From UHGV virus genome UHGV-1674620: DNA of 12,807 nt; one strand, given 5' to 3'. The notes under the pieces are model-generated. The model ran no database searches, was not told where the DNA came from, and saw only the letters and a program-made list of their open reading frames with translations. This DNA is from a virus. The position numbers and the translations under genes are program-made. Positions within the stretch are counted from its first letter, which is position 1. Each line of letters begins with the position of its first letter. Positions 1,629-12,807 of the stretch are shown piece by piece.

Positions 1629-1645
1629 CAACTTTCTCCACAAAA

Positions 1646-3458: not shown

Positions 3459-3555
3459 TGGTTTCTCCACAAATTTTTATCCACGAGCGGGACTGCACTC
3501 CCTTTTCGTTGATGCAGGATGAACTTACTGCGATTTTTAATAGTTATCAAGGATA

Positions 3556-3620: not shown

Positions 3621-4016
3621 TTACCGAGTTGCTAATTTGCAACTCGCTTTTTCGTACTTACTGATAGTGATCTCGACCTTCCCTTCCGGGATAACCGGTC
3701 CCCACTCCACCAGCATTCTTTTCACCTGGCTGTCGTCTTCCCACACACCCGCGTGGGTCAGGGCGTCAAACAGCGCCTTGTTATAGTTGTCCAGATCGCG
3801 GATCCGGTTATCCGGAGGAAACAACACGATCTCCACTGAAGCAGGTGCCGACGTTGGTTTCGGCAGACGACGTAACTGCTCAACTATTGCTGCACACGCC
3901 GCGCTCTGGAATTTTCGCCCCGCCGCGCTTATCAGGCTCTTACCAGCAAACGCCCCTTTGTTGGGGTGTCGCCAGTACGTGTTCACGCTGGGCGGAAAAG
4001 GCAGTATTAGCTTCAT
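3621..4016 (-). CDS. rusA: Crossover junction endodeoxyribonuclease RusA (Holliday junction resolvase)
   Basis: 131 aa; N-terminal MKLILPFPPSVNTYWRH and ...RDLDNYNKALFDALTHAGVWEDDSQV... match the RusA family (compare DLP12 RusA LPWPPSNNRYY...[27 protein letters not shown], from memory). Start overlaps the upstream stop by 4 nt. Confidence 0.85.
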   Translation of the reverse strand: MKLILPFPPSVNTYWRHPNKGAFAGKSLISAAGRKFQSAACAAIVEQLRRLPKPTSAPASVEIVLFPPDNRIRDLDNYNKALFDALTHAGVWEDDSQVKRMLVEWGPVIPEGKVEITISKYEKASCKLATR

Positions 4017-4666
4017 GCCACCATCTCCCTGACCAGTTTTTCCGCCTGCTGGCGAACCTGCGCCAGAAATGCCTCACCACATGCCTCAAGTTCATCGCGC
4101 CCGATGTAGCTGATTGCCGGTCCCTTCCAGGTCTTGTCGAAAACAGCAATAGCACCAGCGAAGAAAGCACCTGTTGGCACCTGCTTTTCGTCTTTCGGGA
4201 TAAACCAGGCAGGCAGTTCAAAACCAATACGCCCGCGAATAAAAGCAATATGATCTGCATCTTCCGGCCACCACACTTCGCTGGTGGCAGCTTTGATCAG
4301 GAAAACATAGCGCCCGCCTTTATCACGCATGGCAGTGGCATGCTTCATGATGTAACGCATGCCGGTGATGTATTGCCCCTCATGCTGACTGGCGCGGCTG
4401 TACGGGGGATTGCCAAAGGCAGCACCTTTAAGCTCCGCAAGACGTTCTGACCAGTCATGCGCCAGCGCGTTGTCTTCCGCCGTGTAATACGCGGCACATT
4501 TGGCGTTATCACCGTCAGTGAACAGATCCAGAACAAACGGACCAAACAAGGTGTTAATTCCCCAGAAAATGTTATCCGGCGTGCGCCACTGATCTCCCAC
4601 TTCCTTCAGTTCATGGGCTGGTTTATTCCGCAGTTCCACCAGCGCCTGGCAATATTTATTACTCAT
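4013..4666 (-). CDS. Phage DNA N6-adenine methyltransferase (Dam-family orphan methyltransferase)
   Basis: 217 aa with the catalytic (D/N)PPY motif in GAAFGNPPYS; size and position after the replication gene are typical of lambdoid orphan MTases. ATG at 4666 is preceded by GGGGG. Confidence 0.8.
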   Translation of the reverse strand: MSNKYCQALVELRNKPAHELKEVGDQWRTPDNIFWGINTLFGPFVLDLFTDGDNAKCAAYYTAEDNALAHDWSERLAELKGAAFGNPPYSRASQHEGQYITGMRYIMKHATAMRDKGGRYVFLIKAATSEVWWPEDADHIAFIRGRIGFELPAWFIPKDEKQVPTGAFFAGAIAVFDKTWKGPAISYIGRDELEACGEAFLAQVRQQAEKLVREMVA

Positions 4667-4760: not shown

Positions 4761-5744
4761 TCACCCCCTGAATCCTGCCGGAATCTGGCTGTAGTCCACG
4801 TTGTCGTAACTGGCTTTGAAGTACGGGTCCTCGCGTCTGGCTGCAGATACCGCAGGAACTTCCCAGGATTCTTCGAAATGACGATCCGGACCAAAGAACG
4901 TCGACGCCTGCTTCACGAACTGGGTACCGGTATTTCCAGAGACACGCACCCAGGCGGCATAGCGTTTCACACCGTCGAGCATGGTTTCGGGTGTCACACC
5001 TTCCCTGATTCGGGCTTTCCAGGCTTTAAAAGCGGCGGATTTTGAATTACCACCAGCACGTTTGGGATATTCCTGCCAGACCTGTTCAAATTCCGGTGAA
5101 TATTCCTGTCGGGCAGAACGCGCTGGCGCAGACGCGTCAGCGGATGCATCAATAGTGTTTTTAGTCTCCGTTGTAATCTCTGTAGTAATCTCTGTATTTG
5201 TATCAACATTCGGCGTATCCCCTGTTCCGTTATGACGTCGGGGGGTGTTCCGTTTTAACGTAATAGCTGTATCGCTGATTGCATTATTGCTGTTACTTTC
5301 TGGCGAAACAGAAGAAGGTGTGGTGATGGCCGCAATTGCCTGTGGGTTGATCCCGACAAACAAAATATTGCTGCATTTCACCCCATCGAGCATTTCCACC
5401 GTGCGTAAATCCAGAGTAATAAACCCTGCATCGCGCAGACGCTTCAGCGCATCTGCGGTTTCCCTTTTCCCGAAACCAAACTGCTCAGCAAACGCCTGGT
5501 AGCTTCTTTGCAGTTTGTCGCCCTGAAAACGCTTGCGATATCCCAGCAACGCTCCGGTGTGCTCATCCCTGACCTCTGTCGGGCGGTACCAGTAAACGAT
5601 CTCTGAAAGCAGAGCGATAGCCGTCGCATCCGGACGCCCACTGGGTAGTCGAATATATTTCCACCAGGTCGCAGGTGTAACATTGCCGGAAATATTAATT
5701 TGACCAATAGCCATAACTTCCGGTGTGGGGGCGTAACGGCTCAT
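4761..5744 (-). CDS. Putative phage replication initiation protein (O-like organiser) with low-complexity central linker
   Basis: 327 aa; winged-helix-like N-terminal region (...KRETADALKRLRDAGFITLD), a central S/T/N/D-rich linker including TEITTEITTE, and a C-terminal ...FEQVWQEYPKR...AFKAWKARIREGV... region. Sits where O lies in lambdoid phages. ATG is preceded by AAGGAGG and overlaps the upstream stop as ATGA. Family assignment is tentative. Confidence 0.55.
   Translation of the reverse strand: MSRYAPTPEVMAIGQINISGNVTPATWWKYIRLPSGRPDATAIALLSEIVYWYRPTEVRDEHTGALLGYRKRFQGDKLQRSYQAFAEQFGFGKRETADALKRLRDAGFITLDLRTVEMLDGVKCSNILFVGINPQAIAAITTPSSVSPESNSNNAISDTAITLKRNTPRRHNGTGDTPNVDTNTEITTEITTETKNTIDASADASAPARSARQEYSPEFEQVWQEYPKRAGGNSKSAAFKAWKARIREGVTPETMLDGVKRYAAWVRVSGNTGTQFVKQASTFFGPDRHFEESWEVPAVSAARREDPYFKASYDNVDYSQIPAGFRG
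5161..5196. repeat. Tandem 12-bp direct repeats (iteron-like) inside the O-like gene; candidate replication origin
   Basis: GTAATCTCTGTA at 5173..5184 and again at 5185..5196, preceded by a degenerate copy TTAGTCTCCGTT (5161..5172). A further pair of 15-mers, TGTTCCGTT(A/T)T(G/A)ACG, lies at 5223..5237 and 5246..5260. Confidence 0.4.
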
Positions 5745-6040
5745 ACAACCTCCTTCCGCAGCATGAGAATTGTGTAGCCACGCGCAGGTTGTAGTCTGGC
5801 TTTTGCATCAATAGTAAGCGTTGCAATTTTTCGGATATGAAGATAACCAGCTCTTTCCAGTGCCAGGGTTTCCCTGAATATCGCTTGCTTAGAACAACAG
5901 CAGAAATCAGCAAGCACCTGATGATCAATAACTCTCTCGCCTTCACCGTCTGAAGAACCCGACATCAAAACACGCAACATAATCAGGCGCTGAATCGGGT
6001 TATCGAAAGCACATCCGCACACAAACTGAAAACAGTTCAC
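5741..6040 (-). CDS. Hypothetical phage protein, 99 aa, possible winged-helix fold
   Basis: Track ORF; GTG start at 6040 is preceded by GGGAGG 6 nt upstream; its stop overlaps the O-like ATG (ATGA). Segment SKQAIFRETLALERAGYLHIRKI looks helix-turn-helix-like. Confidence 0.45.
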   Translation of the reverse strand: MNCFQFVCGCAFDNPIQRLIMLRVLMSGSSDGEGERVIDHQVLADFCCCSKQAIFRETLALERAGYLHIRKIATLTIDAKARLQPARGYTILMLRKEVV

Positions 6041-6261
6041 GCCACACCTCCCAGACGCTTAAACATTTTTCCGGAGCAAAAGGCTATAAGCGGCATACTG
6101 ATGCGGTAATTACGGCCCAGCGGTTCACAAATCACCTTCTGACATTCACGGTCAACCAGGCTGACACGTAGAACATGCCCTGCAGGCGTGGTGTACCACT
6201 GACCAGGACGAGGACAACGGAAAGTCTGATTGGTAAACCGTTTGAAAATATTCCGGATCAT
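6037..6261 (-). CDS. Hypothetical phage protein, 74 aa, four Cys
   Basis: Track ORF; ATG at 6261 overlaps the Rha-ORF stop (ATGA) and is preceded by a G-rich Shine-Dalgarno; its stop overlaps the next gene's GTG. Confidence 0.4.
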   Translation of the reverse strand: MIRNIFKRFTNQTFRCPRPGQWYTTPAGHVLRVSLVDRECQKVICEPLGRNYRISMPLIAFCSGKMFKRLGGVA

Positions 6262-7406
6262 TTGCGCCCCCTTACCTCTGAAGGGTTCAGCGACAAATTT
6301 ATGAGACTGGCCAGTAGCGCCGCGTCGTTGATGCGGTCATACAGACTTACAGCCAGCGGTGATTCGGCTTTTGCCAACATGGGATAAAGCTGCTGCAGCC
6401 AGACCTGATGAATTGATGAAATGTAGGAATAGAGAACGCTGGCGTTATGTGCAACGTCGCTCAGTACAGAGGGATTTGAAAGCTGTTTCTCCATCTGGTT
6501 AAAGGCATTGATGTATGCCTCTTTGAACTGGGCAGCACGTTTACCCGTGAAACCCATAGCAAGAAACGCAAAGCCGTCGCGGGTTATTTGATAGCAAGGT
6601 AGTTTGCGGCCTGTGCAATCGGTGTAATCACTCACCGAAAAATTGCGGGAAGTGAATGATGCAGAGCATTCAAGCGTGCGGATCTTTTTCAGTACATCGT
6701 CATGACGTTTGGAGAAGAAGTTGGCAACAGCCAGGGATGAAGTAACAGCCTGACCATCAACGATGGCAATTTCAGGTTGAGTGAGGGTTGGGATCGTAGC
6801 CATGATGGCAGCCTCCGTTGACTGTGGAAAACTTCCACCACCGGAGCTGCGAAACTCACTGGTGGCAGACTGAACAGGGTTCGCAGTACCGGCGTCAACG
6901 GAGACCGGCGAGCCTTTCGGCTCCCCTGCCCAGCCCACCATAATTCTGGCGTGCGTGAGCGCGGACGATAAAAAAGACGCTGGCGCGTCATATATCGCCG
7001 TTGACAATTCCGGGCTGCGACCCCCGGCACCCGCTTTATAAGGTGCCTGAGCAGTGTAACGTCCCGGAATTGCAGAATCAATATGCTGGTGGTCCTTCAC
7101 ACTCAACAAAATCACGCCTGAATTTCCACAAAGGACTAAAGCACTCATGCGGGTAGTCTTTGCGAAGATAGATAACGCGCTGTGTTTCTGGCTCCCAACG
7201 AATAACATGAACATAAAGTCCTCTTCCGTCACGAAACCAGCGGTTAAGTTCCTGCACAACTCGCCCCCCACAGTCAGGTAAAGTTCTCTGTGGTTACTTA
7301 CAGCCAGGTGATTTGGTAATCTGCATTCATGCCGTAACAACAGGTGTTCAGCGACGCTGACCACCAGCTGTTGCGACAAACGGTTATTTGCCGTTAAACT
7401 ATTCAT
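6258..7406 (-). CDS. Rha-family phage regulatory protein; the Rha domain is the C-terminal 181 aa (internal start at 6803), preceded by about 200 in-frame codons of unknown function
   Basis: MATIPTLTQPEIAIVDGQAVTSSLAVANFFSKRHDDVLKKIRTLEC is the characteristic Rha N-terminal signature (TSL.VA..F.KRHD.VL..I). The ATG at 6803 has GGAGG 8 nt upstream. The frame stays open upstream to an ATG at 7406 that overlaps the cII-like stop (ATGA). Confidence 0.6.
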   Translation of the reverse strand: MNSLTANNRLSQQLVVSVAEHLLLRHECRLPNHLAVSNHRELYLTVGGELCRNLTAGFVTEEDFMFMLFVGSQKHSALSIFAKTTRMSALVLCGNSGVILLSVKDHQHIDSAIPGRYTAQAPYKAGAGGRSPELSTAIYDAPASFLSSALTHARIMVGWAGEPKGSPVSVDAGTANPVQSATSEFRSSGGGSFPQSTEAAIMATIPTLTQPEIAIVDGQAVTSSLAVANFFSKRHDDVLKKIRTLECSASFTSRNFSVSDYTDCTGRKLPCYQITRDGFAFLAMGFTGKRAAQFKEAYINAFNQMEKQLSNPSVLSDVAHNASVLYSYISSIHQVWLQQLYPMLAKAESPLAVSLYDRINDAALLASLINLSLNPSEVRGRK

Positions 7407-7960
7407 GCGTTAGTTTCTCCACAACCAGAAGCAATCGACGCCACGACGCCCGGAGCTGCACACTCGCGGGCGTTACTATTTTCTGGAGCGCAGAAGATTT
7501 TGTAGACCAGTGCTGCATGCTCCTGGAGCTTCGAAATTGAGAGGTACAGCTCGTCGTTAATTGCTGTCTTCTCATGCGGTTCCACTACACCGTCTTCGAT
7601 TGCTGAACGAATCTGTCTGGAATAACTGCCGATCTGTTCAATGACTTCCAGCAGACGCTGGTTAATATCGGCGTTGTCCACATCCTCGACGTCAGGAAGA
7701 GACACAAAGACGCCATTTGCAGACTGCGCCACAGCGTCAGCAATGAAGTGAGTTCCACCAGCACGTTGTAAAATCATTGCCCATCCCAGCGGGAAAATCT
7801 GATCGCCATCGGCACGAAGGCGATTGAATAAAGCGTTCTCTGTTACATCCAGCCACTCAGCAGCTTCAGCGTAACCCCCCGGCAATGCCGCGATAGTTTT
7901 TCTGACAGCTTTCACGTACCACTCAGGTTGTTTTTCCACTTTCCAATGATGCTTACCCAC
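7403..7960 (-). CDS. CII-like phage regulatory protein (CP76-type), 185 aa
   Basis: Immediately downstream of cro, overlapping it by 8 nt; GTG start with AGGAGG 6 nt upstream. Weak resemblance by memory to the phage regulatory protein CII (CP76) family, which occupies this position in E. coli prophages. Confidence 0.5.
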   Translation of the reverse strand: MGKHHWKVEKQPEWYVKAVRKTIAALPGGYAEAAEWLDVTENALFNRLRADGDQIFPLGWAMILQRAGGTHFIADAVAQSANGVFVSLPDVEDVDNADINQRLLEVIEQIGSYSRQIRSAIEDGVVEPHEKTAINDELYLSISKLQEHAALVYKIFCAPENSNARECAAPGVVASIASGCGETNA

Positions 7961-8213
7961 GGCTTACCTCCTGTTCCTGTGGTTTAAACCCATTCTGGTT
8001 TTGGCTAGATTGAAAACGTGCCGGATAAAGAATCTGCATTTCGCTGATTTCACCCTTAAAAAAATTGGCCAGACGTTCTGCAAGGTCGATAGATGGAATT
8101 TGTTCCAGTCTTTCAATACGACTCAGCGTCGCTGGATTGACCTGAACGCCCGCAGCAACATGCTGCAAAGTAAATCCGTGCGCCTTACGCACATTCCGTA
8201 ATGGTGATTGCAT
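7953..8213 (-). CDS. Cro-like HTH repressor
   Basis: 86 aa with helix-turn-helix GFTLQHVAAGVQVNPATLSRIE; divergently transcribed from the cI-like gene across a 97-bp operator region; GGAGG upstream of the ATG. Confidence 0.75.
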   Translation of the reverse strand: MQSPLRNVRKAHGFTLQHVAAGVQVNPATLSRIERLEQIPSIDLAERLANFFKGEISEMQILYPARFQSSQNQNGFKPQEQEVSRG

Positions 8214-8310
8214 ATAACCTCCACATATTGCGTGATGAGCATATTATTTCACGCAAATATTTTGCGCAAGTTGATTTGCTTAACGCGCAATAAAGAAATG
8301 TAATAAACGC
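8214..8310. promoter_or_regulatory. Immunity operator/promoter region (OR-like) with divergent PR and PRM candidates
   Basis: Minus-strand PR candidate: -35 TTGCGC (plus 8264..8269), 17-bp spacer, -10 TAATAT (plus 8241..8246), then a leader with GGAGG. Plus-strand PRM candidate: -35 TTGCTT (8276..8281), 17-bp spacer, -10 TGTAAT (8299..8304), which would start transcription at or near the cI ATG (no Shine-Dalgarno upstream of cI). Dyad elements: TTGCTTAACGCGCAA (8276..8290), palindrome TTGCGCAA (8262..8269), TTGCGTGATGAGCAT (8228..8242). Confidence 0.55.
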
Positions 8311-9003
8311 ATGAACATAGGAAATCGAGTCAGACAACTTCGCCAGGCGAAGAACATGAAAATCGCCGATCTCGCTGAAGCAATAGGAGTGGATGCGGCG
8401 AATATCTCGCGCCTCGAAACAGGTAAGCAGAAACAATTCACTGAACAAGCCCTGAGTAATATTGCCAGGAGCTTAGGTGTTGATATTGCTGATCTCTTTA
8501 CCTCAGACCTCAAAAGTAATACTGTATGTAAAAACAGTATTAGTGAGGATGTTGCGCAGGTGAAGGATGTATTCCGTATTGAAATGCTGGATGTCAGTGC
8601 CAGTGCGGGAAATGGCCTTATCCAGGGCGGTGATGTCATTGATGTGATTCATGCCATTGAATACAGAACTGATAATGCTGTATCGATGTTTGGTGGACGA
8701 CCAGCAAATCACATTAAAGTTATCAACGTTCGTGGGGACAGTATGTGTCCAACCATTGAGCCAGGAGATCTCATCTTCGTTGATATCAGTATCAATCAGT
8801 TTGATGGGGATGGTATATATGTATTTGGTTTTGATGATAAAATTTACGTCAAACGACTGCAAATGATACCTGATAAACTGCTGGTAATTTCTGATAATCA
8901 GATTTACCGCGAATGGGGAATTACCAGCGAAAACGAACATCGGTTTATGGTCTTTGGAAAGGTCTTAATCAGTCAGTCACAAACCCTTAAGCGACACAAT
9001 TAA
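8311..9003 (+). CDS. CI-like prophage repressor (N-terminal XRE-type HTH, C-terminal S24 LexA-like autopeptidase domain)
   Basis: 230 aa; HTH MKIADLAEAIGVDAANISRLETGKQ; S24 motifs VRGDSMCPTIEPGDLIFVD (Ser) and IYVKRLQ (Lys), with a candidate Ala-Gly cleavage site in DVSASAGNG; divergent from cro. Confidence 0.9.
   Translation: MNIGNRVRQLRQAKNMKIADLAEAIGVDAANISRLETGKQKQFTEQALSNIARSLGVDIADLFTSDLKSNTVCKNSISEDVAQVKDVFRIEMLDVSASAGNGLIQGGDVIDVIHAIEYRTDNAVSMFGGRPANHIKVINVRGDSMCPTIEPGDLIFVDISINQFDGDGIYVFGFDDKIYVKRLQMIPDKLLVISDNQIYREWGITSENEHRFMVFGKVLISQSQTLKRHN
8520..8539. promoter_or_regulatory. Candidate LexA (SOS) box inside the cI coding sequence (linker between HTH and S24 domains)
   Basis: TACTGTATGTAAAAACAGTA: 20-mer with perfect TACTGT-N8-ACAGTA architecture (12 fixed positions matching the consensus TACTGT(AT)4ACAGTA); encodes NTVCKNS of CI. 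Confidence 0.45.
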
Positions 9004-9024
9004 CCCCCTACCTCAACATCAATT

Positions 9025-9046
9025 AGCCACCAGAAGGTGGCTTTTC
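9025..9046 (+). terminator. Putative terminator after cI
   Basis: AGCCACC-AGAA-GGTGGCT hairpin (7-bp stem) followed by TTTT, beginning 22 nt after the cI stop. Confidence 0.4.
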
Positions 9047-9059
9047 ATTACCCACCAAA

Positions 9060-9098
9060 TTGCATATCTCGCAATAAAAACACTTGCATAATGCGCAA
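9060..9098 (+). promoter_or_regulatory. OL-like operator pair, possible PL region
   Basis: Two 15-bp dyads with the same architecture as the OR element: TTGCATATCTCGCAA (9060..9074) and TTGCATAATGCGCAA (9084..9098), centres 24 bp apart. -10-like CATAAT at 9087..9092; no clean -35 at 17-bp spacing. Confidence 0.4.
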
Positions 9099-9542
9099 CT
9101 TCATTTTATCTTTCTTTCCAGACCTACAAACAAGGTACTAACAAAATTTGGTTGTAACACGGCGTATGGCACATGCGTCGTTAGCGGTCTGGGGACGTTA
9201 AAGGGGACAATCCACTCCTTGCTCGGGCAAACAAACCAGGTAGCCGGAATGTGCAAGTCAATGAGGATGCTGATAAGACGCCTAACCAGCGTGGCGATTC
9301 GGTTTGACGCCTGGGAAGAGACCAGGACGCAACGATGAGAGCATTTATGGAGCCGCGACAAAGTGTGGTGCCGTAACTGGCTAAGTGCTCTCAGCGTTGT
9401 GGTGAATGCGCAGGCTGATGCGCGAAAGACATTGCAGCTATTGCGGAAAAGAGCTGTTCGGCGGGGCAATTAAACGCCCGTGAGAGTCTGAAATAACCGC
9501 AAGCCGGAGATCAGCACCGGTCACCACAACAGCCACTGCTTT

Positions 9543-9589
9543 GGCGGTACCAGTTTGTACACTTGCTTCCGGCTGGTACCGCTCTTTTT
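9543..9589 (+). terminator. Putative intrinsic terminator at the end of the noncoding leader
   Basis: Arms GCGGTACCAG (9544..9553) and CTGGTACCGC (9573..9582), 10 bp perfect, followed by TCTTTTT (9583..9589). The 19-nt loop is long for a canonical terminator. Confidence 0.45.
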
Positions 9590-9590
9590 A

Positions 9591-9677
9591 CAAAACAGAG
9601 AAGAGCATCACCGGACGACGGGCTCATAACCCAATCCATCCGGGCGGCTGCCACCGCAGGTGTTCTTCTCTGTTTTG
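9591..9677. repeat. Perfect 14-bp inverted repeat (extendable to 17 bp with one G-U) flanking a 59-bp GC-rich spacer, upstream of the early-left operon
   Basis: CAAAACAGAGAAGA (9591..9604) and its exact reverse complement TCTTCTCTGTTTTG (9664..9677). Confidence 0.6.
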
Positions 9678-9726
9678 TGGAGAAACCAACCGACCTTGCA
9701 GGGTCGATATGATGAGGAGCAGCAAA

Positions 9727-10089
9727 ATGGCTAGCGTACGCAGTACTGATGTGCAGGTATTTATCGTAGAACTGGACGGCGGCGTATTTGAAACCAAACT
9801 CGGCGCAGTTCTCAGTGAAGTCGCTTCCGGTGTGATGAACACGAAAAACAAAGGTAAAGTCTCGGTCAATCTGGACATCGAACCGTTTGATGAGAACCGT
9901 GTGAAAATCAAACACAAACTCTCATATGTTCGCCCGACTAACCGCGGGAAAATTTCCGAAGAAGACACCACCGAAACGCCGATGTATGTCAATCGCGGTG
10001 GTCGCCTGACTATTCTGCAGGAAGACCAGGGACAATTACTGACTCTTGCCGGTGAACCTGACGGAAAACTCCGCGCAGCAGGTCATTAA
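9727..10089 (+). CDS. Hypothetical phage protein, 120 aa, first gene of the early-left operon (possibly YfdP-like)
   Basis: ATG at 9727 has GAGGAG about 9 nt upstream; the track ORF start at 9541 would run through the terminator hairpin and is rejected. The YfdP resemblance is from memory of the CPS-53 gene order and size only. Confidence 0.55.
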   Translation: MASVRSTDVQVFIVELDGGVFETKLGAVLSEVASGVMNTKNKGKVSVNLDIEPFDENRVKIKHKLSYVRPTNRGKISEEDTTETPMYVNRGGRLTILQEDQGQLLTLAGEPDGKLRAAGH

Positions 10090-10154
10090 TATCGTTCTTA
10101 ATTAACTGATTATTTATCTCATCACTGAATATCTTAATATAGTGAGGACTTATT

Positions 10155-10979
10155 ATGTCTCAGAACTTAGACGCAACCGCAATTAATCAAATCCATGCCC
10201 TTATTTCTGCTCAGGGTGTTAATGAAATTATCAGTAAGATTGGTGCCGATGCTGTGGCATTGCCTGAGAATTTCCGCATTCATGATCTGGAAAAATTTAA
10301 TTTAAATCGCTTCCGTTTCCGTGGTGCGCTTTCCACTGCCAGCATCGATGACTTTACCCGTTATTCTAAAGATCTTGCAGATGAAGGCACCCGCTGCTTT
10401 ATCGATGCCGATAATATGCGTGCCGTCAGTGTGCTTAACCTGGGTACTATTGGTGAACCAGGTCACGCAGATAACACCGCCACACTCAAACTGAAAAAGA
10501 CAGCACCGTTCTCTGCTCTGTTGTCTGTTAACGGCGAGCGTAACTCCCAGAAGTCACTGGCAGAATGGATTGAAGACTGGGCCGACTATCTTGTGGGCTT
10601 TGATGCTAATGGTGACGCTATTAAGGCAACAAAAGCGGCTGCGGCAGTCCGTAAAATCACGATTGAAGCAAACCAGACCGCTGATTTTGAAGATAATGAC
10701 TTCAGCGGCAAACGCTCTTTGATGGAGTCTGTCGAAGCGAAGACCAAAGACATTATGCCAGTGGTATTTGAATTTAAATGCGTTCCGTTTGAAGGCCTGA
10801 AAGAACGTCCGTTTAAATTACGCCTCAGCATTATCACTGGCGATCGTCCTGTACTGGTTCTGCGCATTATTCAGCTGGAAGCAGTGCAGGAAGAAATGGC
10901 TAACGAATTTCGTGATCTGCTTGTTGAGAAATTTAAAGACAGCAAAGTAGAAACCTTTATTGGTACTTTCACCGCCTGA
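10155..10979 (+). CDS. Hypothetical phage protein, 274 aa (YfdQ-like by size and context)
   Basis: Track ORF with GAGGA 6 nt upstream of the ATG; no recognisable catalytic motif (no Walker A, HNH or HD). Assignment rests on memory of the E. coli CPS-53 yfdP-yfdQ-yfdR-yfdS order and protein lengths. Confidence 0.65.
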
Positions 10980-10991
10980 TTTCATTACTGC

Positions 10992-11016
10992 AAATGCCCC
11001 TGCGGGGGCATTTATG
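10992..11016 (+). terminator. Hairpin, possible attenuator or terminator between the 274-aa gene and the HD-domain gene
   Basis: AAATGCCCC-TGCG-GGGGCATTT: perfect 9-bp stem with a 4-nt loop, followed by AT; no strong T-tract. Confidence 0.35.
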
Positions 11017-11107
11017 GAAACATAATTGACTCAATAATCGCCTGATGGCGAGGGTTTTCTTTAACCAAAATTCAGCGCGGTGCAGCGCATATAAAGTGGA
11101 GAACAAA

Positions 11108-11644
11108 ATGTCATTTATTAAAACTTTTTCCGGGAAGCATTTTTATTATGACAGGATAAATAAAGACGACATCGTGATTAACGATATCGCGGTTTCCCTT
11201 TCAAATATCTGTCGCTTTGCAGGACATCTTTCACACTTCTACAGCGTCGCCCAACATGCGGTGCTTTGCAGCCAGCTGGTACCGCAGGAATTTGCTTTTG
11301 AAGCGTTAATGCATGATGCAACAGAAGCGTATTGCCAGGACATCCCAGCTCCACTGAAACGCCTTCTTCCTGACTATAAACGGATGGAAGAAAAAATAGA
11401 CGCCGTAATCCGTGAGAAATACGGGTTACCTCCTGTTATGAGCACGCCTGTGAAATATGCCGATCTCATTATGCTGGCAACCGAACGTCGCGATCTCGGG
11501 CTTGATGATGGCTCTTTCTGGCCTGTACTGGAAGGTATCCCGGCGACAGAGATGTTCAAAGTTATTCCACTGTCACCAGGCCATGCCTACGGGATGTTTA
11601 TGGAACGTTTTAACGAGTTATCGGAGTTACGCAAATGCGCATGA
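11108..11644 (+). CDS. HD-domain phosphohydrolase (YfdR-like 5'-deoxynucleotidase family), 178 aa
   Basis: His and His-Asp motifs (SVAQHAV ... ALMHDATEAY) typical of HD-domain hydrolases. ATG at 11108 has GGAG 6 nt upstream; the track start at 11045 lacks a Shine-Dalgarno. Confidence 0.7.
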   Translation: MSFIKTFSGKHFYYDRINKDDIVINDIAVSLSNICRFAGHLSHFYSVAQHAVLCSQLVPQEFAFEALMHDATEAYCQDIPAPLKRLLPDYKRMEEKIDAVIREKYGLPPVMSTPVKYADLIMLATERRDLGLDDGSFWPVLEGIPATEMFKVIPLSPGHAYGMFMERFNELSELRKCA

Positions 11645-11997
11645 ATGTTTTCGAAATGGAAGGGTTTCTTCGCGGGAAATGTGTACCACGAGATCTGAAA
11701 GTGAATGAAACAAATGCTGAGTACCTGGTACGTAAATTCGATGCGCTTGAAGCTAAATGTGCGGCACTGGAAAACAAAATAATACCAGTGTCAGCTGAAC
11801 TGCCGCCAGCAAATGAAAGTGTTCTGTTATTTGATGCTAACGGAGAAGGCTGGCTAATTGGCTGGCGTTCTCTCTGGTACACCTGGGGACAAAAAGAAAC
11901 CGGAGAATGGCAGTGGACATTTCAGGTCGGGGACCTTGAAAACGTCAATATCACTCACTGGGCAGTAATGCCGAAAGCACCGAAGAATAAAAAATGA
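11635..11997 (+). CDS. Hypothetical phage protein, 120 aa, Trp-rich C-terminus (YfdS-like or DUF551-like)
   Basis: Start overlaps the HD-gene stop; C-terminal GWLIGWRSLWYTWGQKETGEWQW pattern of conserved tryptophans. Confidence 0.55.
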   Translation: MRMNVFEMEGFLRGKCVPRDLKVNETNAEYLVRKFDALEAKCAALENKIIPVSAELPPANESVLLFDANGEGWLIGWRSLWYTWGQKETGEWQWTFQVGDLENVNITHWAVMPKAPKNKK

Positions 11998-12197
11998 GCG
12001 TGATAAAAACTCATACAGGAATTGTTATCACCCGAGACGGTCCGCAGGTAAAAAAACTGCACCAGACAAAGCGGATGTGGGTCGTCGGAAAAAACGAGTT
12101 TTACCACAAAGAAACCGGACGCCGCCACTTTGCAGAAAATACTCGCCGCCGACTGCTGATCGATACCATCAAGCCTATCGAGGTGAAGCATGTTTAA
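11994..12197 (+). CDS. Hypothetical small basic protein, 67 aa
   Basis: ATG overlaps the upstream stop as ATGA; part of the coupled operon. Confidence 0.4.
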   Translation: MSVIKTHTGIVITRDGPQVKKLHQTKRMWVVGKNEFYHKETGRRHFAENTRRRLLIDTIKPIEVKHV

Positions 12198-12429
12198 ACA
12201 GAACGAAAAATCTATCGCTCAAATTGCTGAGTATATCCCGCGTGCGTGCCGGGATATGCAGTTGCAGGAAGCCAAAGCACGCCTGGAGAAAAAAATTGCG
12301 CTCTATATCGATGACGGCTGTGATGCCGCCGTTCTTAACGCGGCGTTCGCGCCAGCTCTTAACAGTCATACGCGAAAGTCTTTTTTTTCGTGCATCGCAG
12401 CGCAGATCCGTAAAGGAGGCAACCAGTGA
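12190..12429 (+). CDS. Hypothetical small protein, 79 aa
   Basis: ATG at 12190 preceded by GAGGTGA; overlaps the upstream stop by 8 nt. Confidence 0.4.
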   Translation: MFKQNEKSIAQIAEYIPRACRDMQLQEAKARLEKKIALYIDDGCDAAVLNAAFAPALNSHTRKSFFSCIAAQIRKGGNQ

Positions 12430-12807
12430 GCAACATTAACTATCAGGTACTGCGTGAAAAGGCAGAGAAAGCAACTAAAGGAAGCTACATCGTAGGGCAT
12501 ACATCTGTTAACCAGCACGGCAATTTAACAGGAGTTTTTGTTTGTCAAAAATGGAAAGGAGAACCCGGTGGCGTGATTGCCGAATGTCATGTTAACTGCC
12601 TGATTGAATCAGATGCTCAGGCTTATGCAAACGCTGAATTTATAGCAGATGCTAACCCAGCTACCGTACTGGCGCTACTGGATGAACGGGAAAGAAACCA
12701 GCAATACATCAAACGCCGCGACCAGGAGAACGAGGATATTGCGCTTACGGTTGGGAAGCTGAGAGTTGAGCTTGAGGAAGTAAAACAACACGCTGAAGAA
12801 TTATCCG
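12426..12807 (+). CDS. Ead/Ea22-like early protein, 5' partial (continues beyond window end)
   Basis: GTG start overlapping the upstream TGA (GTGA), GGAGG 6 nt upstream. Hand translation VSNINYQVLREKAEKATKGSYIVGHTSV... resembles the N-termini of Ead/Ea22-family proteins (from memory). Confidence 0.45.
   Translation, partial: MSNINYQVLREKAEKATKGSYIVGHTSVNQHGNLTGVFVCQKWKGEPGGVIAECHVNCLIESDAQAYANAEFIADANPATVLALLDERERNQQYIKRRDQENEDIALTVGKLRVELEEVKQHAEELS

What the first reader, a model, noticed from the sequence alone, without database searches (positions are those of the whole stretch)
9727..12429. Early-left operon resembling the CPS-53 yfdP-yfdQ-yfdR-yfdS cluster, with an HD-domain hydrolase
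Gene lengths and order (120, 274, 178 and 120 aa, then small ORFs) and the HD motif match what I recall of the E. coli CPS-53 cluster. There, YfdR is an HD-domain 5'-deoxynucleotidase reported to bind DnaA, and overexpression of the cluster inhibits replication initiation. The 120-aa and 274-aa proteins have no recognisable motifs. Their place in the immunity-proximal early operon is typical of host-takeover, superinfection-exclusion or anti-defence functions.
Basis: partly seen in the sequence, partly recalled or inferred. Interest (0 to 1): 0.5.

Follow-up and report, generated by a model that had tools for sequence, protein, structure and literature searches.

The report
Prophage yfdP-yfdQ-yfdR-yfdS early-left operon
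This stretch is the already catalogued yfdP-yfdQ-yfdR-yfdS gene cluster of E. coli lambda-like prophages, sitting just downstream of the phage repressor gene; one of its proteins (YfdR) is known to bind the host replication initiator DnaA, so the finding is correct but ordinary, although two of the genes still have no known function.

Summary
ORFs of 120, 274, 178 and 120 aa at 9727-11997 are 93%, 98%, 98% and 99% identical to E. coli K-12 CPS-53 YfdP, YfdQ, YfdR and YfdS. They lie in the same order, co-directional with and downstream of a cI-type repressor. After yfdS the window diverges from CPS-53: there is no yfdT, and two small ORFs and an ead/Ea22 gene follow. The same module occurs in thousands of E. 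coli genomes and in plaque-forming phages such as mEp460. Published work shows that YfdR binds DnaA domain I, and that multicopy yfdQ plus yfdR plus yfdS or yfdT blocks initiation at oriC.

- yfdP and yfdQ form a near-obligate adjacent pair (79 of 80 loci). This holds in Xanthomonas, Vibrio and Marinobacter phages, where the pair sits next to recombination genes.
- yfdR is a facultative companion found only in Enterobacterales loci.
- The YfdR HD motif is conserved.
- A YfdQ homologue has a 36-chain PDB entry (9O7M); I found no paper for it.
- A structured RNA leader with covariation (9574-9729) precedes yfdP across enterobacterial genera. It matches no Rfam family.

YfdP and YfdQ function remains unknown. 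Verdict: already known, low to moderate interest.

The parts
8311..9003 (+). cI-type prophage repressor (context: defines the immunity region upstream of the operon)
   Evidence: Pfam HTH_3/HTH_26 plus Peptidase_S24. Annotated as XRE family regulator, prophage repressor or cI in matching records.
9025..9042 (.). GC-rich hairpin with a T-run directly after the cI stop codon (terminator-like)
   Evidence: Terminator scan, 7 pairs, AGCCACCAGAAGGTGGCT followed by TTTTCATT.
9060..9098 (.). Two operator-like palindromes TTGC-N7-GCAA (candidate OL). Matching sites lie at 8228 (one mismatch) and 8276 between cro and cI (candidate OR).
   Evidence: Pattern search; direct repeat D2, 8276-8294 with 9060-9078, 84%. 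The pattern as a whole is not enriched in the window (12 matches against 9.9 expected); the argument rests on where the four sites lie. The promoter itself was not pinned down (one search found no consensus promoter here).
9544..9590 (+). Terminator-like hairpin GGCGGTACCAG...CTGGTACCGC followed by TCTTTTT, immediately 5' of the leader
   Evidence: 12-bp stem in the MFE fold. The same GC-stem plus T-run arrangement is visible in most genera in alignment A3. The function is inferred.
9574..9729 (+). Conserved structured 5' leader of yfdP. It comprises a long hairpin (arms 9590-9614 and 9654-9678), the motif TTGTGGAGAAAC, a short hairpin (about 9691-9706), the Shine-Dalgarno sequence and the ATG.
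   Evidence: Inverted repeat I1. The 688-nt leader folds with z = -4.6. Covariation on 42 sequences from many genera: 79.8% of cells paired against 37-60% for slid controls, 15 pairs changed on both sides, score 0.199 against 0.101 for shuffles (0 of 500). Model R1 scores the window at 104.5 bits (E 3e-25) and gives one strong + strand hit per locus, abutting yfdP in all but two loci, with none elsewhere. No Rfam match.
9727..10089 (+). yfdP (120 aa), Pfam PF27127 family, function unknown
   Evidence: 93.3% identical to K-12 YfdP; phrog_204, E 2.5e-48; homologues carry PF27127; start supported by alignment A2. Directly upstream of yfdQ in 79 of 80 loci.
10155..10979 (+). yfdQ (274 aa), DUF2303/PF10065, function unknown
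   Evidence: 98.2% identical to K-12 YfdQ; Pfam DUF2303, E 1.4e-90; phrog_210; PDB 9o7m 'YfdQ Protein', E 3e-44. The family has 1,710 clusters at 50% identity, almost all 265-285 aa.
10991..11051 (+). yfdQ-yfdR spacer holding two hairpins: AAATGCCCC-TGC-GGGGCATTT at 10994-11014, and TCGCC-TGAT-GGCGA followed by GGGTTTTCTT at 11038-11051. Possibly a weak internal terminator.
   Evidence: Sequence; terminator scan hit at 11038-11051. The function is inferred. The SrsR study's target table lists yfdPQ as a separate operon (PMC9181523).
11108..11644 (+). yfdR (178 aa), HD-domain 5'-deoxynucleotidase and DnaA-binding protein
   Evidence: 97.8% identical to K-12 YfdR; phrog_318, E 6e-110; PDB 2gz4, E 2e-13, with the HD residues aligned. 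H50, H69, D70, D78 and D119 are at least 97% conserved in 54 homologues. The RBS GTGGAGAACAAAATG supports the start.
11635..11997 (+). yfdS (120 aa), C-terminal DUF551-like domain; overlaps the yfdR stop by 10 nt
   Evidence: 99.1% identical to K-12 YfdS over 117 aa; phrog_583, E 3e-82; Pfam DUF551 scores 21.8 bits against a cut-off of 22.
11994..12197 (+). 67-aa ORF (phrog_1226, unknown function); start overlaps the yfdS stop (ATGA)
   Evidence: Annotated as a hypothetical protein in RefSeq and in mEp460. Not YfdT.
12190..12429 (+). 79-aa ORF (phrog_1344, unknown function); overlaps the previous ORF by 8 nt
12426..12807 (+). Start of an ead/Ea22-like gene (GTG start overlapping the previous stop); runs off the window, so the operon continues
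   Evidence: Pfam Ead_Ea22, E 1e-33; annotated as such in matching genomes.

Best explanation
The region is the repressor-proximal part of the early-left (pL-type) operon of an mEp460/SfV/LLS-type lambdoid prophage of E. coli. It is kept silent in the lysogen by the adjacent cI-type repressor and transcribed early after induction or infection.

It encodes three units:
- The YfdP-YfdQ pair. This is a near-obligate two-gene unit of unknown biochemistry, translated behind a dedicated structured RNA leader.
- YfdR, an HD-domain 5'-deoxynucleotidase.
- YfdS and two small proteins whose ORFs overlap end to end with yfdR and with each other.

The most likely working model is host takeover at the level of DNA replication. 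YfdR binds domain I of the host initiator DnaA at the Phe46 patch that DiaA and DnaB use. Together with YfdQ and YfdS it then blocks new initiations at oriC while the phage replicates. Its conserved catalytic site also hydrolyses dNMPs.

Shown: the orthology, the operon context, the conserved HD site, the conserved P-Q pairing and the leader structure. Taken from the literature on the 98%-identical K-12 proteins: DnaA binding and inhibition of initiation on overexpression. Inferred: that this is the natural role during the phage cycle, and what YfdP and YfdQ do in it.
For: - Orthology and synteny with CPS-53.
- The same module is present in plaque-forming phages mEp460, phiSTEC1575-Stx2k, 1720a-02 and Stx2a phages, and in 3,968 of 5,426 complete E. 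coli genomes, at least in part.
- cI/Cro/CII context and operator-like sites flanking cI.
- The order cII-cro-cI-yfdP-yfdQ-(yfdR)...xis-int recurs in dozens of species.
- Published work on K-12 (PMC4776307): purified YfdR binds DnaA, and DnaA Phe46 is important for this. [quoted passage not shown] The minimal gene set that inhibits initiation is yfdQ plus yfdR plus (yfdS or yfdT). Extracts inhibit oriC replication in vitro. The authors themselves propose a role in the ancestral phage analogous to lambda P.
- The HD residues are at least 97% conserved across 54 homologues that are 43-98% identical.
- Overlapping stop and start codons from yfdR onward.
Against: - All functional data come from multicopy overexpression. 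Deleting yfdQRST had no effect on initiation, and the authors concede a possible artefact.
- yfdR is absent from every non-Enterobacterales locus that carries yfdPQ, and from 22 of 81 loci overall. The conserved core, yfdPQ, therefore cannot depend on YfdR or on DnaA binding.
- In distant phages yfdPQ sits among recombination genes, which suggests another primary role.
- YfdQ, YfdS and YfdT did not co-purify with YfdR or DnaA.
- No promoter was identified, and a terminator-like hairpin lies between the operator-like sites and yfdP with no antiterminator found.
Confidence: 0.45

Rival explanations
1. YfdP-YfdQ is an accessory DNA-transaction module. It would be a DNA-binding, higher-order assembly acting on recombination or replication intermediates or on DNA ends. 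It belongs functionally with phage Rec modules, and inhibition of initiation on overexpression is a side effect of DNA or replisome binding. YfdR would then be an independent nucleotide-metabolism add-on.
For: - P and Q are adjacent on the same strand in 79 of 80 loci, including distant ones.
- Xanthomonas phage CP2: yfdP, yfdQ, a DUF1351-like gene, Erf, exonuclease, endonuclease, SSB.
- Kistimonas locus L156: a YqaJ exonuclease lies directly upstream.
- Pontibacterium locus L163: RecT plus YqaJ lie directly upstream.
- Locus L158: SSB lies downstream.
- The PDB entry 9o7m of a YfdQ homologue holds 36 chains, suggesting a large oligomer.
- The DUF2303 protein gp10 of Burkholderia phage JC1 was detected in virions (PMC9144972).
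- The family is large and of strictly conserved length, with no fusions.
Against: - The Genome Research 2025 survey argues that these genes occur both with and without canonical Rec modules, so are unlikely to be hidden recombinases (PMC12315714).
- The AF2 models are of only moderate confidence (pLDDT 74 and 67).
- Gene neighbourhood is only association.
Confidence: 0.3
2. The operon's selected function is nucleotide-pool manipulation or counter-defence. YfdR would act as a phosphatase on dNMPs, as the pre-early phage T5 5'-deoxyribonucleotidase does, or on a nucleotide signal. YfdP, YfdQ and YfdS would be anti-defence or superinfection-exclusion factors. DnaA binding would be an overexpression artefact.
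For: - The HD catalytic residues are strictly conserved.
- PHROG families 318, 6402 and 8467 are annotated as deoxyribonucleoside 5'-monophosphate phosphatase.
- 5'-deoxynucleotidase activity is reported for K-12 YfdR (Zimmerman 2008, as cited in PMC4776307).
- Repressor-proximal early genes of lambdoid phages often serve such roles (general knowledge).
- The original authors admit a possible artefact.
Against: - No PADLOC hit for any of the six proteins, though that library models defence systems, not anti-defence proteins.
- The DnaA interaction is specific to one residue (Phe46) and was shown with purified proteins.
- I found no published anti-defence or exclusion phenotype.
Confidence: 0.15

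Closest known systems
E. coli K-12 cryptic prophage CPS-53 (KpLE1) yfdP-yfdQ-yfdR-yfdS-yfdT
   Same: Orthologous genes in the same order: 93%, 98%, 98% and 99% protein identity and 96.6% DNA identity over 2.28 kb. The published DnaA-binding and initiation-inhibition data were obtained on these proteins (PMC4776307).
   Different: K-12 has lost the immunity region and the leader. Homology starts only 19 nt before the yfdP ATG, and a truncated O gene (yfdO) with SrsR boxes abuts yfdP instead. K-12 has yfdT and ypdJ after yfdS. The window has unrelated 67-aa and 79-aa ORFs and an ead/Ea22 gene.
Functional lambdoid phages mEp460 (gp35-gp30), Shigella phage SfV (orf29-31), LLS (gp37-39), ST64B (gp35-37)
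   Same: The same early-left module downstream of cI. mEp460 is 97.4% identical over window 9000-12454, leader included. These phage types lack an N homologue and, in many cases, a Rec module and a helicase loader (PMC12315714).
   Different: None in kind. Mosaic junctions in the leader (about 9140, 9390, 9540) and after yfdS differ between phages.
E. coli YfbR / Agrobacterium Atu1052 (PDB 2gz4): HD-domain 5'-deoxynucleotidases
   Same: The H...HD...D metal-binding motif is aligned and conserved. K-12 YfdR is reported to be a 5'-deoxynucleotidase.
   Different: The relationship is distant. Pfam YfbR-like scores 24.3 bits against a cut-off of 25.9, and the NCBIfam equivalog scores 19.9 against 122. 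YfdR has reported lower nucleotide affinity and an extra DnaA-binding activity that is not known for YfbR.
Phage and cellular inhibitors of DnaA: lambda P, B. subtilis SirA, Dps, DiaA/HobA competition
   Same: A proposed way of working. A protein binds DnaA to stop initiation at oriC (YfdR, SirA and Dps on domain I; lambda P on domain III), as discussed in PMC4776307 and PMC12122000.
   Different: No sequence relationship. Lambda P targets domain III and is also the helicase loader. YfdR needs YfdQ and YfdS or YfdT in vivo, for unknown reasons.
Cis-acting leader RNAs of lambdoid pL operons: HK022 putL/putR and the RNase III-sensitive hairpin of the lambda N leader
   Same: A conserved structured RNA between the early-left promoter region and the first gene, in a phage type that lacks N.
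   Different: This is not a put RNA. There is only one copy, always abutting yfdP. Model R1 gave no hit in HK022, and no second copy was found in the pR operon. It lies downstream of, not upstream of, the terminator-like hairpin. Comparison with the lambda N leader rests on my own knowledge and was not tested.

Membership tests
CPS-53-type yfdPQRS(T) cluster | Proteins orthologous to K-12 YfdP, YfdQ, YfdR and YfdS | tested here: met
   BLASTP 93.3%, 98.2%, 97.8% and 99.1% identity over full or nearly full length.
CPS-53-type yfdPQRS(T) cluster | Same gene order and strand (P-Q-R-S) | tested here: met
   collinear DNA match of window 9708-11985 with K-12.
CPS-53-type yfdPQRS(T) cluster | yfdT downstream of yfdS | tested here: not met
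   No ORF in the window matches YfdT. The 67-aa and 79-aa ORFs give only chance hits. yfdS can substitute for yfdT in the published assay.
HD-domain phosphohydrolase (YfbR-like 5'-deoxynucleotidase) | H...HD...D metal-binding residues | tested here: met
   H50, H69-D70 and D119 (also D78) align with PDB 2gz4 and are at least 97% conserved in 54 homologues.
HD-domain phosphohydrolase (YfbR-like 5'-deoxynucleotidase) | Score above the curated family thresholds | tested here: not met
   Pfam YfbR-like scores 24.3 against 25.9; HD_3 scores 17 against 22.5; NCBIfam PRK03826 scores 19.9 against 122. PHROG 318 matches strongly (E 6e-110). YfdR is therefore a distant HD-domain relative, not a YfbR equivalog.
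HD-domain phosphohydrolase (YfbR-like 5'-deoxynucleotidase) | dNMP phosphatase activity | not testable with these tools
   Reported for the 98%-identical K-12 YfdR (Zimmerman 2008, cited in PMC4776307).
DnaA domain I binding inhibitors of initiation | Direct, Phe46-dependent binding to DnaA and inhibition of oriC initiation | not testable with these tools
   Published for K-12 YfdR and YfdQRST. Four amino-acid differences separate the window's YfdR from that of K-12.
DUF2303 / YfdQ family (PF10065) | Full-length match above the Pfam gathering score | tested here: met
   303.6 bits against 26.6, profile positions 2-269 of 269.
YfdP family (PF27127) | Match to the family model | tested here: inconclusive
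   The local Pfam copy lacks the model (0 hits). All homologues, including the 93%-identical K-12-type protein, carry a precomputed PF27127 hit. phrog_204, E 2.5e-48.
DUF551 (PF04448) | Match above the gathering score | tested here: inconclusive
   21.8 bits against a cut-off of 22, residues 50-117. K-12 YfdS is described as a DUF551 protein.
Lambdoid early-left (pL) operon | Co-directional with and downstream of the cI repressor gene, with repressor operators in between | tested here: met
   cI at 8311-9003. TTGC-N7-GCAA sites at 9060 and 9084 match those between cro and cI. The order recurs in many species. Binding to these sites was not tested.
Lambdoid early-left (pL) operon | Identified promoter and antitermination device (N/nut or put) | tested here: not met
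   No consensus promoter in 8900-9700. No N-like protein hit. No paired nut-like or put-like elements.
HK022-type put antiterminator RNA | Two related copies (putL, putR), one downstream of each early promoter, each about 70 nt with two stems | tested here: not met
   Model R1 finds a single copy per locus and nothing in HK022. There is no Rfam family to test against.
Phage recombination (Rec) module proteins (SSAP, exonuclease, RecBCD inhibitor) | Sequence or fold similarity to RecT/Erf/Rad52/Sak4, YqaJ/lambda Exo, or Gam/Abc2 | tested here: not met
Known anti-phage defence systems (PADLOC) | Match to a defence-system protein model | tested here: not met
   0 families for all six proteins.

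The most novel reading that the evidence does not exclude
yfdP-yfdQ, not yfdR, is the conserved functional unit. On this reading it is a widespread two-protein module of temperate-phage early operons: about 1,700 clusters at 50% identity, found from E. coli siphophages to Xanthomonas podophages. It would form a large assembly (the 36-chain PDB entry) and act on DNA alongside recombination and replication functions. In Enterobacterales its expression would be gated by a previously undescribed structured RNA leader, placed directly behind a terminator-like hairpin. That leader could be a processing, translational-control or antitermination element specific to this gene pair. The DnaA-directed activity of YfdR would then be a lineage-specific add-on.
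Probability: 0.4. Interest if true: 0.55.

Novelty: already known. Interest (0 to 1): 0.3.

Why it matters
As posed, the finding re-identifies a catalogued prophage gene cluster, so it changes nothing by itself. The module is worth some attention for three reasons. First, it is extremely common: it is at least partly present in about three quarters of complete E. coli genomes, including Stx-converting phages. Second, it is carried by lambdoid phages that lack N, a Rec module and a helicase loader, and whose replication and early gene control are not understood. Third, two of its genes still have no assigned function ten years after the only functional study. The near-obligate YfdP-YfdQ pairing, their neighbourhood among recombination genes in distant phages, and the conserved leader RNA give concrete, testable handles on that gap.

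Tried and rejected
- **Hidden recombinase idea for YfdP/YfdQ.** No family or fold support, and it is argued against in PMC12315714. I kept it only as "associated with Rec genes".
- **Search for a paper on PDB 9O7M, DUF2303 or YfdQ structure.** None found. The Xanthomonas phage Xacm4-11 cryo-EM preprint does not mention it.
- **Scan of viral contigs with the YfdQ alignment.** It returned only 99%-identical E. coli copies, useless for diversity.
- **RNAalifold on the MAFFT leader alignment.** It predicted zero pairs, because the hairpin tops are variable and gappy. I took the stem from the window's MFE fold and counted pairs instead.
- **put-like or nut-like explanation for the leader.** There is no second copy of the leader, or of the 9396-9423 block, in the pR operon, and model R1 gave no hit in HK022.
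- **ORFs in the 9003-9727 gap.** The ORFs at 9084-9338 (+) and 9101-9469 (-) have no PHROG hit. The - strand ORF at 9511-9915 and the 49-aa + strand ORF at 9563-9712 hit only 'unknown function' PHROGs. I took these for over-called ORFs lying over the leader and yfdP.
- **Plasmid carriage.** Only 14 PLSDB records, mostly phage-sized circles or mislabelled chromosomes.
- **Defence systems.** No PADLOC hits.


Full report
**1. What is there**

The window is the immunity and early region of an E. coli lambdoid prophage. On the - strand lie these genes:
- Q antiterminator (1257-1643)
- DUF968, KilA-N and RusA genes
- Dam methylase (4013-4666)
- an O-like replication gene (4761-5744, whose C-terminus matches K-12 YfdO)
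- an Ash/Rha regulator (6258-7406)
- a CII-like gene (7403-7960)
- a Cro-like gene (7953-8213)

| Coordinates | Length |
|---|---|
| 9727-10089 | 120 aa |
| 10155-10979 | 274 aa |
| 11108-11644 | 178 aa |
| 11635-11997 | 120 aa |
| 11994-12197 | 67 aa |
| 12190-12429 | 79 aa |

An ead/Ea22-like gene then starts at 12426 and runs off the window.

**2. Check of the observation**

BLASTP against the K-12 MG1655 CPS-53 proteins gives the following:

| Window ORF | K-12 protein | Identity |
|---|---|---|
| 120 aa | YfdP | 93.3% over 120/120 aa |
| 274 aa | YfdQ | 98.2% over 274/274 aa |
| 178 aa | YfdR | 97.8% over 178/178 aa |
| 120 aa | YfdS | 99.1% over 117/120 aa |

The DNA is 96.6% identical over window 9708-11985. 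The homology ends there: the 67-aa and 79-aa ORFs are not YfdT. Most codon differences from K-12 in yfdQ, yfdR and yfdS are synonymous.

RefSeq annotates the matching stretch as yfdP, YfdQ family, yfdR 5'-deoxynucleotidase and phage protein. At least part of window 9400-12807 matches in 3,968 of 5,426 complete E. coli genomes. Window 9000-12807 matches 439 phage records. They include plaque-forming mEp460 (97.4% over window 9000-12454), phiSTEC1575-Stx2k, 1720a-02 and several Stx2-converting phages.

**3. Check of the recalled literature**

Noguchi and Katayama 2016 (PMC4776307) isolated yfdQRST as a multicopy suppressor of hda-185 over-initiation. Their main results were:
- The minimal set is yfdQ plus yfdR plus either yfdS or yfdT. 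yfdP is not needed.
- Purified YfdR binds DnaA, and DnaA Phe46 (domain I) is important for this.
- Extracts with YfdQRST inhibit oriC replication in vitro.
- Deletion has no phenotype for initiation.
- The authors allow that the effect might be an overexpression artefact, and suggest a lambda-P-like host-shut-off role in the ancestral phage.

Later papers from the same field treat YfdR as an inhibitor that competes with DnaB for DnaA domain I (PMC12122000).

**4. The individual proteins**

*YfdR.* It matches the HD-domain models only weakly: Pfam YfbR-like scores 24.3 bits against a cut-off of 25.9, and the NCBIfam equivalog is far below threshold. It strongly matches phage families annotated as deoxyribonucleoside 5'-monophosphate phosphatase (phrog_318, E 6e-110). 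It also matches the solved HD protein Atu1052 (PDB 2gz4, E 2e-13), with the H...HD...D residues aligned. In 54 homologues that are 43-98% identical, H50, H69, D70, D78 and D119 are at least 97% conserved. The catalytic site is therefore under selection, whatever the role of DnaA binding.

*YfdQ.* It is a full-length DUF2303 protein (E 1.4e-90). A profile search of 1.84 billion representatives finds 1,710 clusters. Nearly all are 265-285 aa, single-domain and without fusions. One homologue, about 38% identical, has a solved structure: PDB 9o7m, 'YfdQ Protein', 36 chains. Its sequence is 98.8% identical to a protein of Xanthomonas phage MET23-P3, a relative of podophage CP2. I found no paper describing it.

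*YfdP.* It belongs to the new Pfam family PF27127 (precomputed hits) and to phrog_204.

*YfdS.* It has a near-threshold DUF551 C-terminal domain.

*Defence.* None of the six proteins matches a PADLOC defence model.

**5. Which genes belong together**

I collected 80 loci from different species (GTDB genomes, YfdQ identity 43-98%) plus Xanthomonas phage CP2. I then searched them with iterated profiles.
- A YfdP homologue lies immediately upstream of yfdQ on the same strand in 79 of the 80 loci that include upstream DNA. The gap is typically 14-66 nt.
- This holds in CP2 (38% identity for both proteins) and in Marinobacter, Photobacterium, Vibrio, Kistimonas and Pontibacterium.
- YfdR follows yfdQ in 59 of 81 loci. 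It is absent from every non-Enterobacterales locus.
- YfdS-like genes occur in only 5 loci.

yfdPQ is therefore the conserved unit, yfdR a frequent lineage-specific companion, and yfdS local.

In Enterobacterales the usual order is cII-like, cro, cI, (0-2 small ORFs), yfdP, yfdQ, (yfdR), variable genes, xis, int. In the distant loci the pair sits among recombination genes:
- CP2: a DUF1351-like gene, Erf, exonuclease, endonuclease and SSB lie downstream.
- L156: a YqaJ exonuclease lies directly upstream.
- L163: RecT and a YqaJ protein lie directly upstream.
- L158: SSB lies downstream.

A 2025 survey of lambdoid phages notes that the yfdR/yfdQ/yfdP cluster is common in early-left operons. It states that yfdQ and yfdP have no known function. 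It argues they are not cryptic recombinases, because they occur both with and without Rec modules (PMC12315714). Other scattered reports:
- weak MMS and H2O2 sensitivity of delta-yfdQ
- virion association of a DUF2303 protein in Burkholderia phage JC1
- an effect of YfdQ on production of phage SW1 (bioRxiv 10.1101/413146)

**6. The region between cI and yfdP**

A hairpin with a T-run follows cI (9025-9042). Two exact TTGC-N7-GCAA palindromes at 9060 and 9084 resemble the sites at 8228 and 8276 between cro and cI. They are plausible OL operators. No consensus promoter was found.

The 688-nt leader is unusually structured (z = -4.6). A 12-bp hairpin with a U-run (9544-9590) is followed at once by these elements:
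- a long hairpin with 25-nt arms at 9590-9614 and 9654-9678
- the motif TTGTGGAGAAAC
- a short hairpin
- the Shine-Dalgarno sequence and the yfdP ATG

The segment around 9575-9690 is conserved at 70-93% nucleotide identity in genera where YfdQ is only 55-70% identical in protein.

I tested the stem on an alignment of 42 sequences from about 25 genera:
- 79.8% of cells are paired, against 37-60% when the partners are slid.
- 15 pairs show changes on both sides (94 cells).
- The covariation score is 0.199, against 0.101 for shuffles; 0 of 500 shuffles reach it.
- G-U pairs are tolerated on the + strand only.

A covariance model built from this alignment finds one strong + strand hit per locus in about 66 loci. 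These include many sequences not used to build the model. All but two of these hits end at the yfdP start codon; in the two Xenorhabdus loci the hit lies about 500 nt upstream. The model finds nothing elsewhere in 1.04 Mb. It also finds nothing in HK022, in K-12 CPS-53 (which has lost the leader), or in the non-Enterobacterales loci. Rfam has no match.

This phage type has no N homologue, and a put-like mechanism has been suggested for it. The element is single-copy and lies downstream of the terminator-like hairpin. It is therefore not a put-like pair. It is a dedicated yfdP leader whose function is unknown. Processing, translational control or local antitermination are all possible.

A further 28-nt block (9396-9423) is 100% identical across distant genera and remains unexplained.

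**7. How it most likely works**

*Shown.* The genes are intact, under purifying selection, repressor-proximal and co-directional with cI. From yfdR onward the ORFs overlap stop to start.

*From the literature on near-identical proteins.* YfdR is a dNMP phosphatase that binds DnaA domain I, and the set yfdQ plus yfdR plus yfdS blocks initiation at oriC.

*Inferred.* After cI inactivation the operon is transcribed early. Its products then stop new rounds of host replication and act on the nucleotide pool while the phage replicates. This fits a phage type that, according to PMC12315714, often encodes only an O-like initiator and no helicase loader.

I give this model 0.45. Its support is overexpression only, and the conserved core (yfdPQ) exists widely without yfdR. 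The main rival, at 0.3, is that yfdPQ is an accessory DNA-transaction assembly and yfdR an independent add-on. The nucleotide or anti-defence reading gets 0.15.

**8. Novelty and verdict**

The finding as stated is correct and already known. The cluster is named, annotated, widespread and the subject of a dedicated paper. Three points go beyond that record: the near-obligate P-Q pairing with its Rec-gene neighbourhood in distant phages, the facultative status of yfdR, and the conserved leader RNA. They are modest but testable. Overall interest is 0.3.

Noticed in passing
window 9574-9729 (+), with the hairpin at 9544-9590 just upstream: A structured RNA leader directly upstream of yfdP, made of a long hairpin and a short hairpin. 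It is conserved with compensatory base changes across about 25 enterobacterial genera. It occurs once per locus, abutting yfdP in all but two loci, matches no Rfam family and is absent from K-12 CPS-53. It lies immediately after a terminator-like hairpin.
   Followed up: yes
window 9384-9427 (+): The 28-mer GTTGTGGTGAATGCGCAGGCTGATGCGC is 100% identical in Kosakonia, Rahnella, Citrobacter and Serratia loci where the neighbouring proteins are only about 55-65% identical. It contains a small boxB-like hairpin preceded by a boxA-like GTGCTCTCA. No second copy occurs in the window, so a nut pair is not shown.
   Followed up: partly
window 6858-6945 (-) and 6970-7046 (-): Rfam hits above gathering score to C4 antisense RNA (78.8 bits) and to the isrK Hfq-binding RNA (58.7 bits). 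Both lie inside the 5' third of the 382-aa 'Ash/Rha' ORF (6258-7406). This suggests a P1/P7-type antisense-controlled antirepressor region, and that the long ORF call may be over-extended.
   Followed up: no
L005 (Xanthomonas phage CP2) 2639-3892; L156, L158, L163: The yfdP-yfdQ pair is conserved as neighbours far outside Enterobacterales. There it sits beside Erf or RecT, YqaJ exonuclease, DUF1351-like and SSB genes, and yfdR is absent.
   Followed up: yes
PDB 9o7m (a homologue of window 10155-10979): A solved structure named 'YfdQ Protein' with 36 chains exists for a Xanthomonas CP2-like phage homologue about 38% identical to the window protein. I found no publication, and the entry did not appear in the results from the fold-search libraries.
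   Followed up: partly
window 1633-1644 (-), 3462-3473 (-), 7414-7425 (-), 9674-9685 (+), 11094-11104 (+): The motif (T)TGTGGAGAA(A/C) recurs as the ribosome-binding context of the Q, KilA-N, Rha and yfdR genes: 7 matches against 1.8 expected. It also forms the 3' foot of the yfdP leader hairpin, where no start codon follows it.
   Followed up: partly
window 4761-6040 (-): The replication module seems to consist of an O-like gene (no Pfam hit; its C-terminus matches K-12 YfdO) and a 99-aa ORF. No helicase or helicase-loader gene lies before the Dam methylase. This matches the 'O-only' lambdoid type that PMC12315714 describes as not understood.
   Followed up: no
L163 4029-5615 (+): A 528-aa protein combines an N-terminal YqaJ exonuclease domain with a C-terminal match to the phage T7 gp5.9 RecBCD-inhibitor family (E 2e-13). 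It lies directly upstream of yfdP-yfdQ in a Pontibacterium prophage.
   Followed up: no
loci L099, L106, L110-L117, L123-L130, L144-L151 (upstream of yfdP): In many non-E. coli genera the terminator-like hairpin 5' of the leader carries a conserved loop motif, GAAGATAATGTTCTG, preceded by GCTGTGTGTAGTC. The window's version lacks it. In L113 the long hairpin and this hairpin are in the reverse order.
   Followed up: no
window 9709-9729 (+): Two in-frame ATG codons (9709, 9712) lie 6 and 5 codons upstream of the annotated yfdP start. Homologue alignments and the GAGG at 9714-9717 favour 9727. The mechanical ORF (TTG at 9541, 182 aa) covers the whole leader and is not a real extension.
   Followed up: partly
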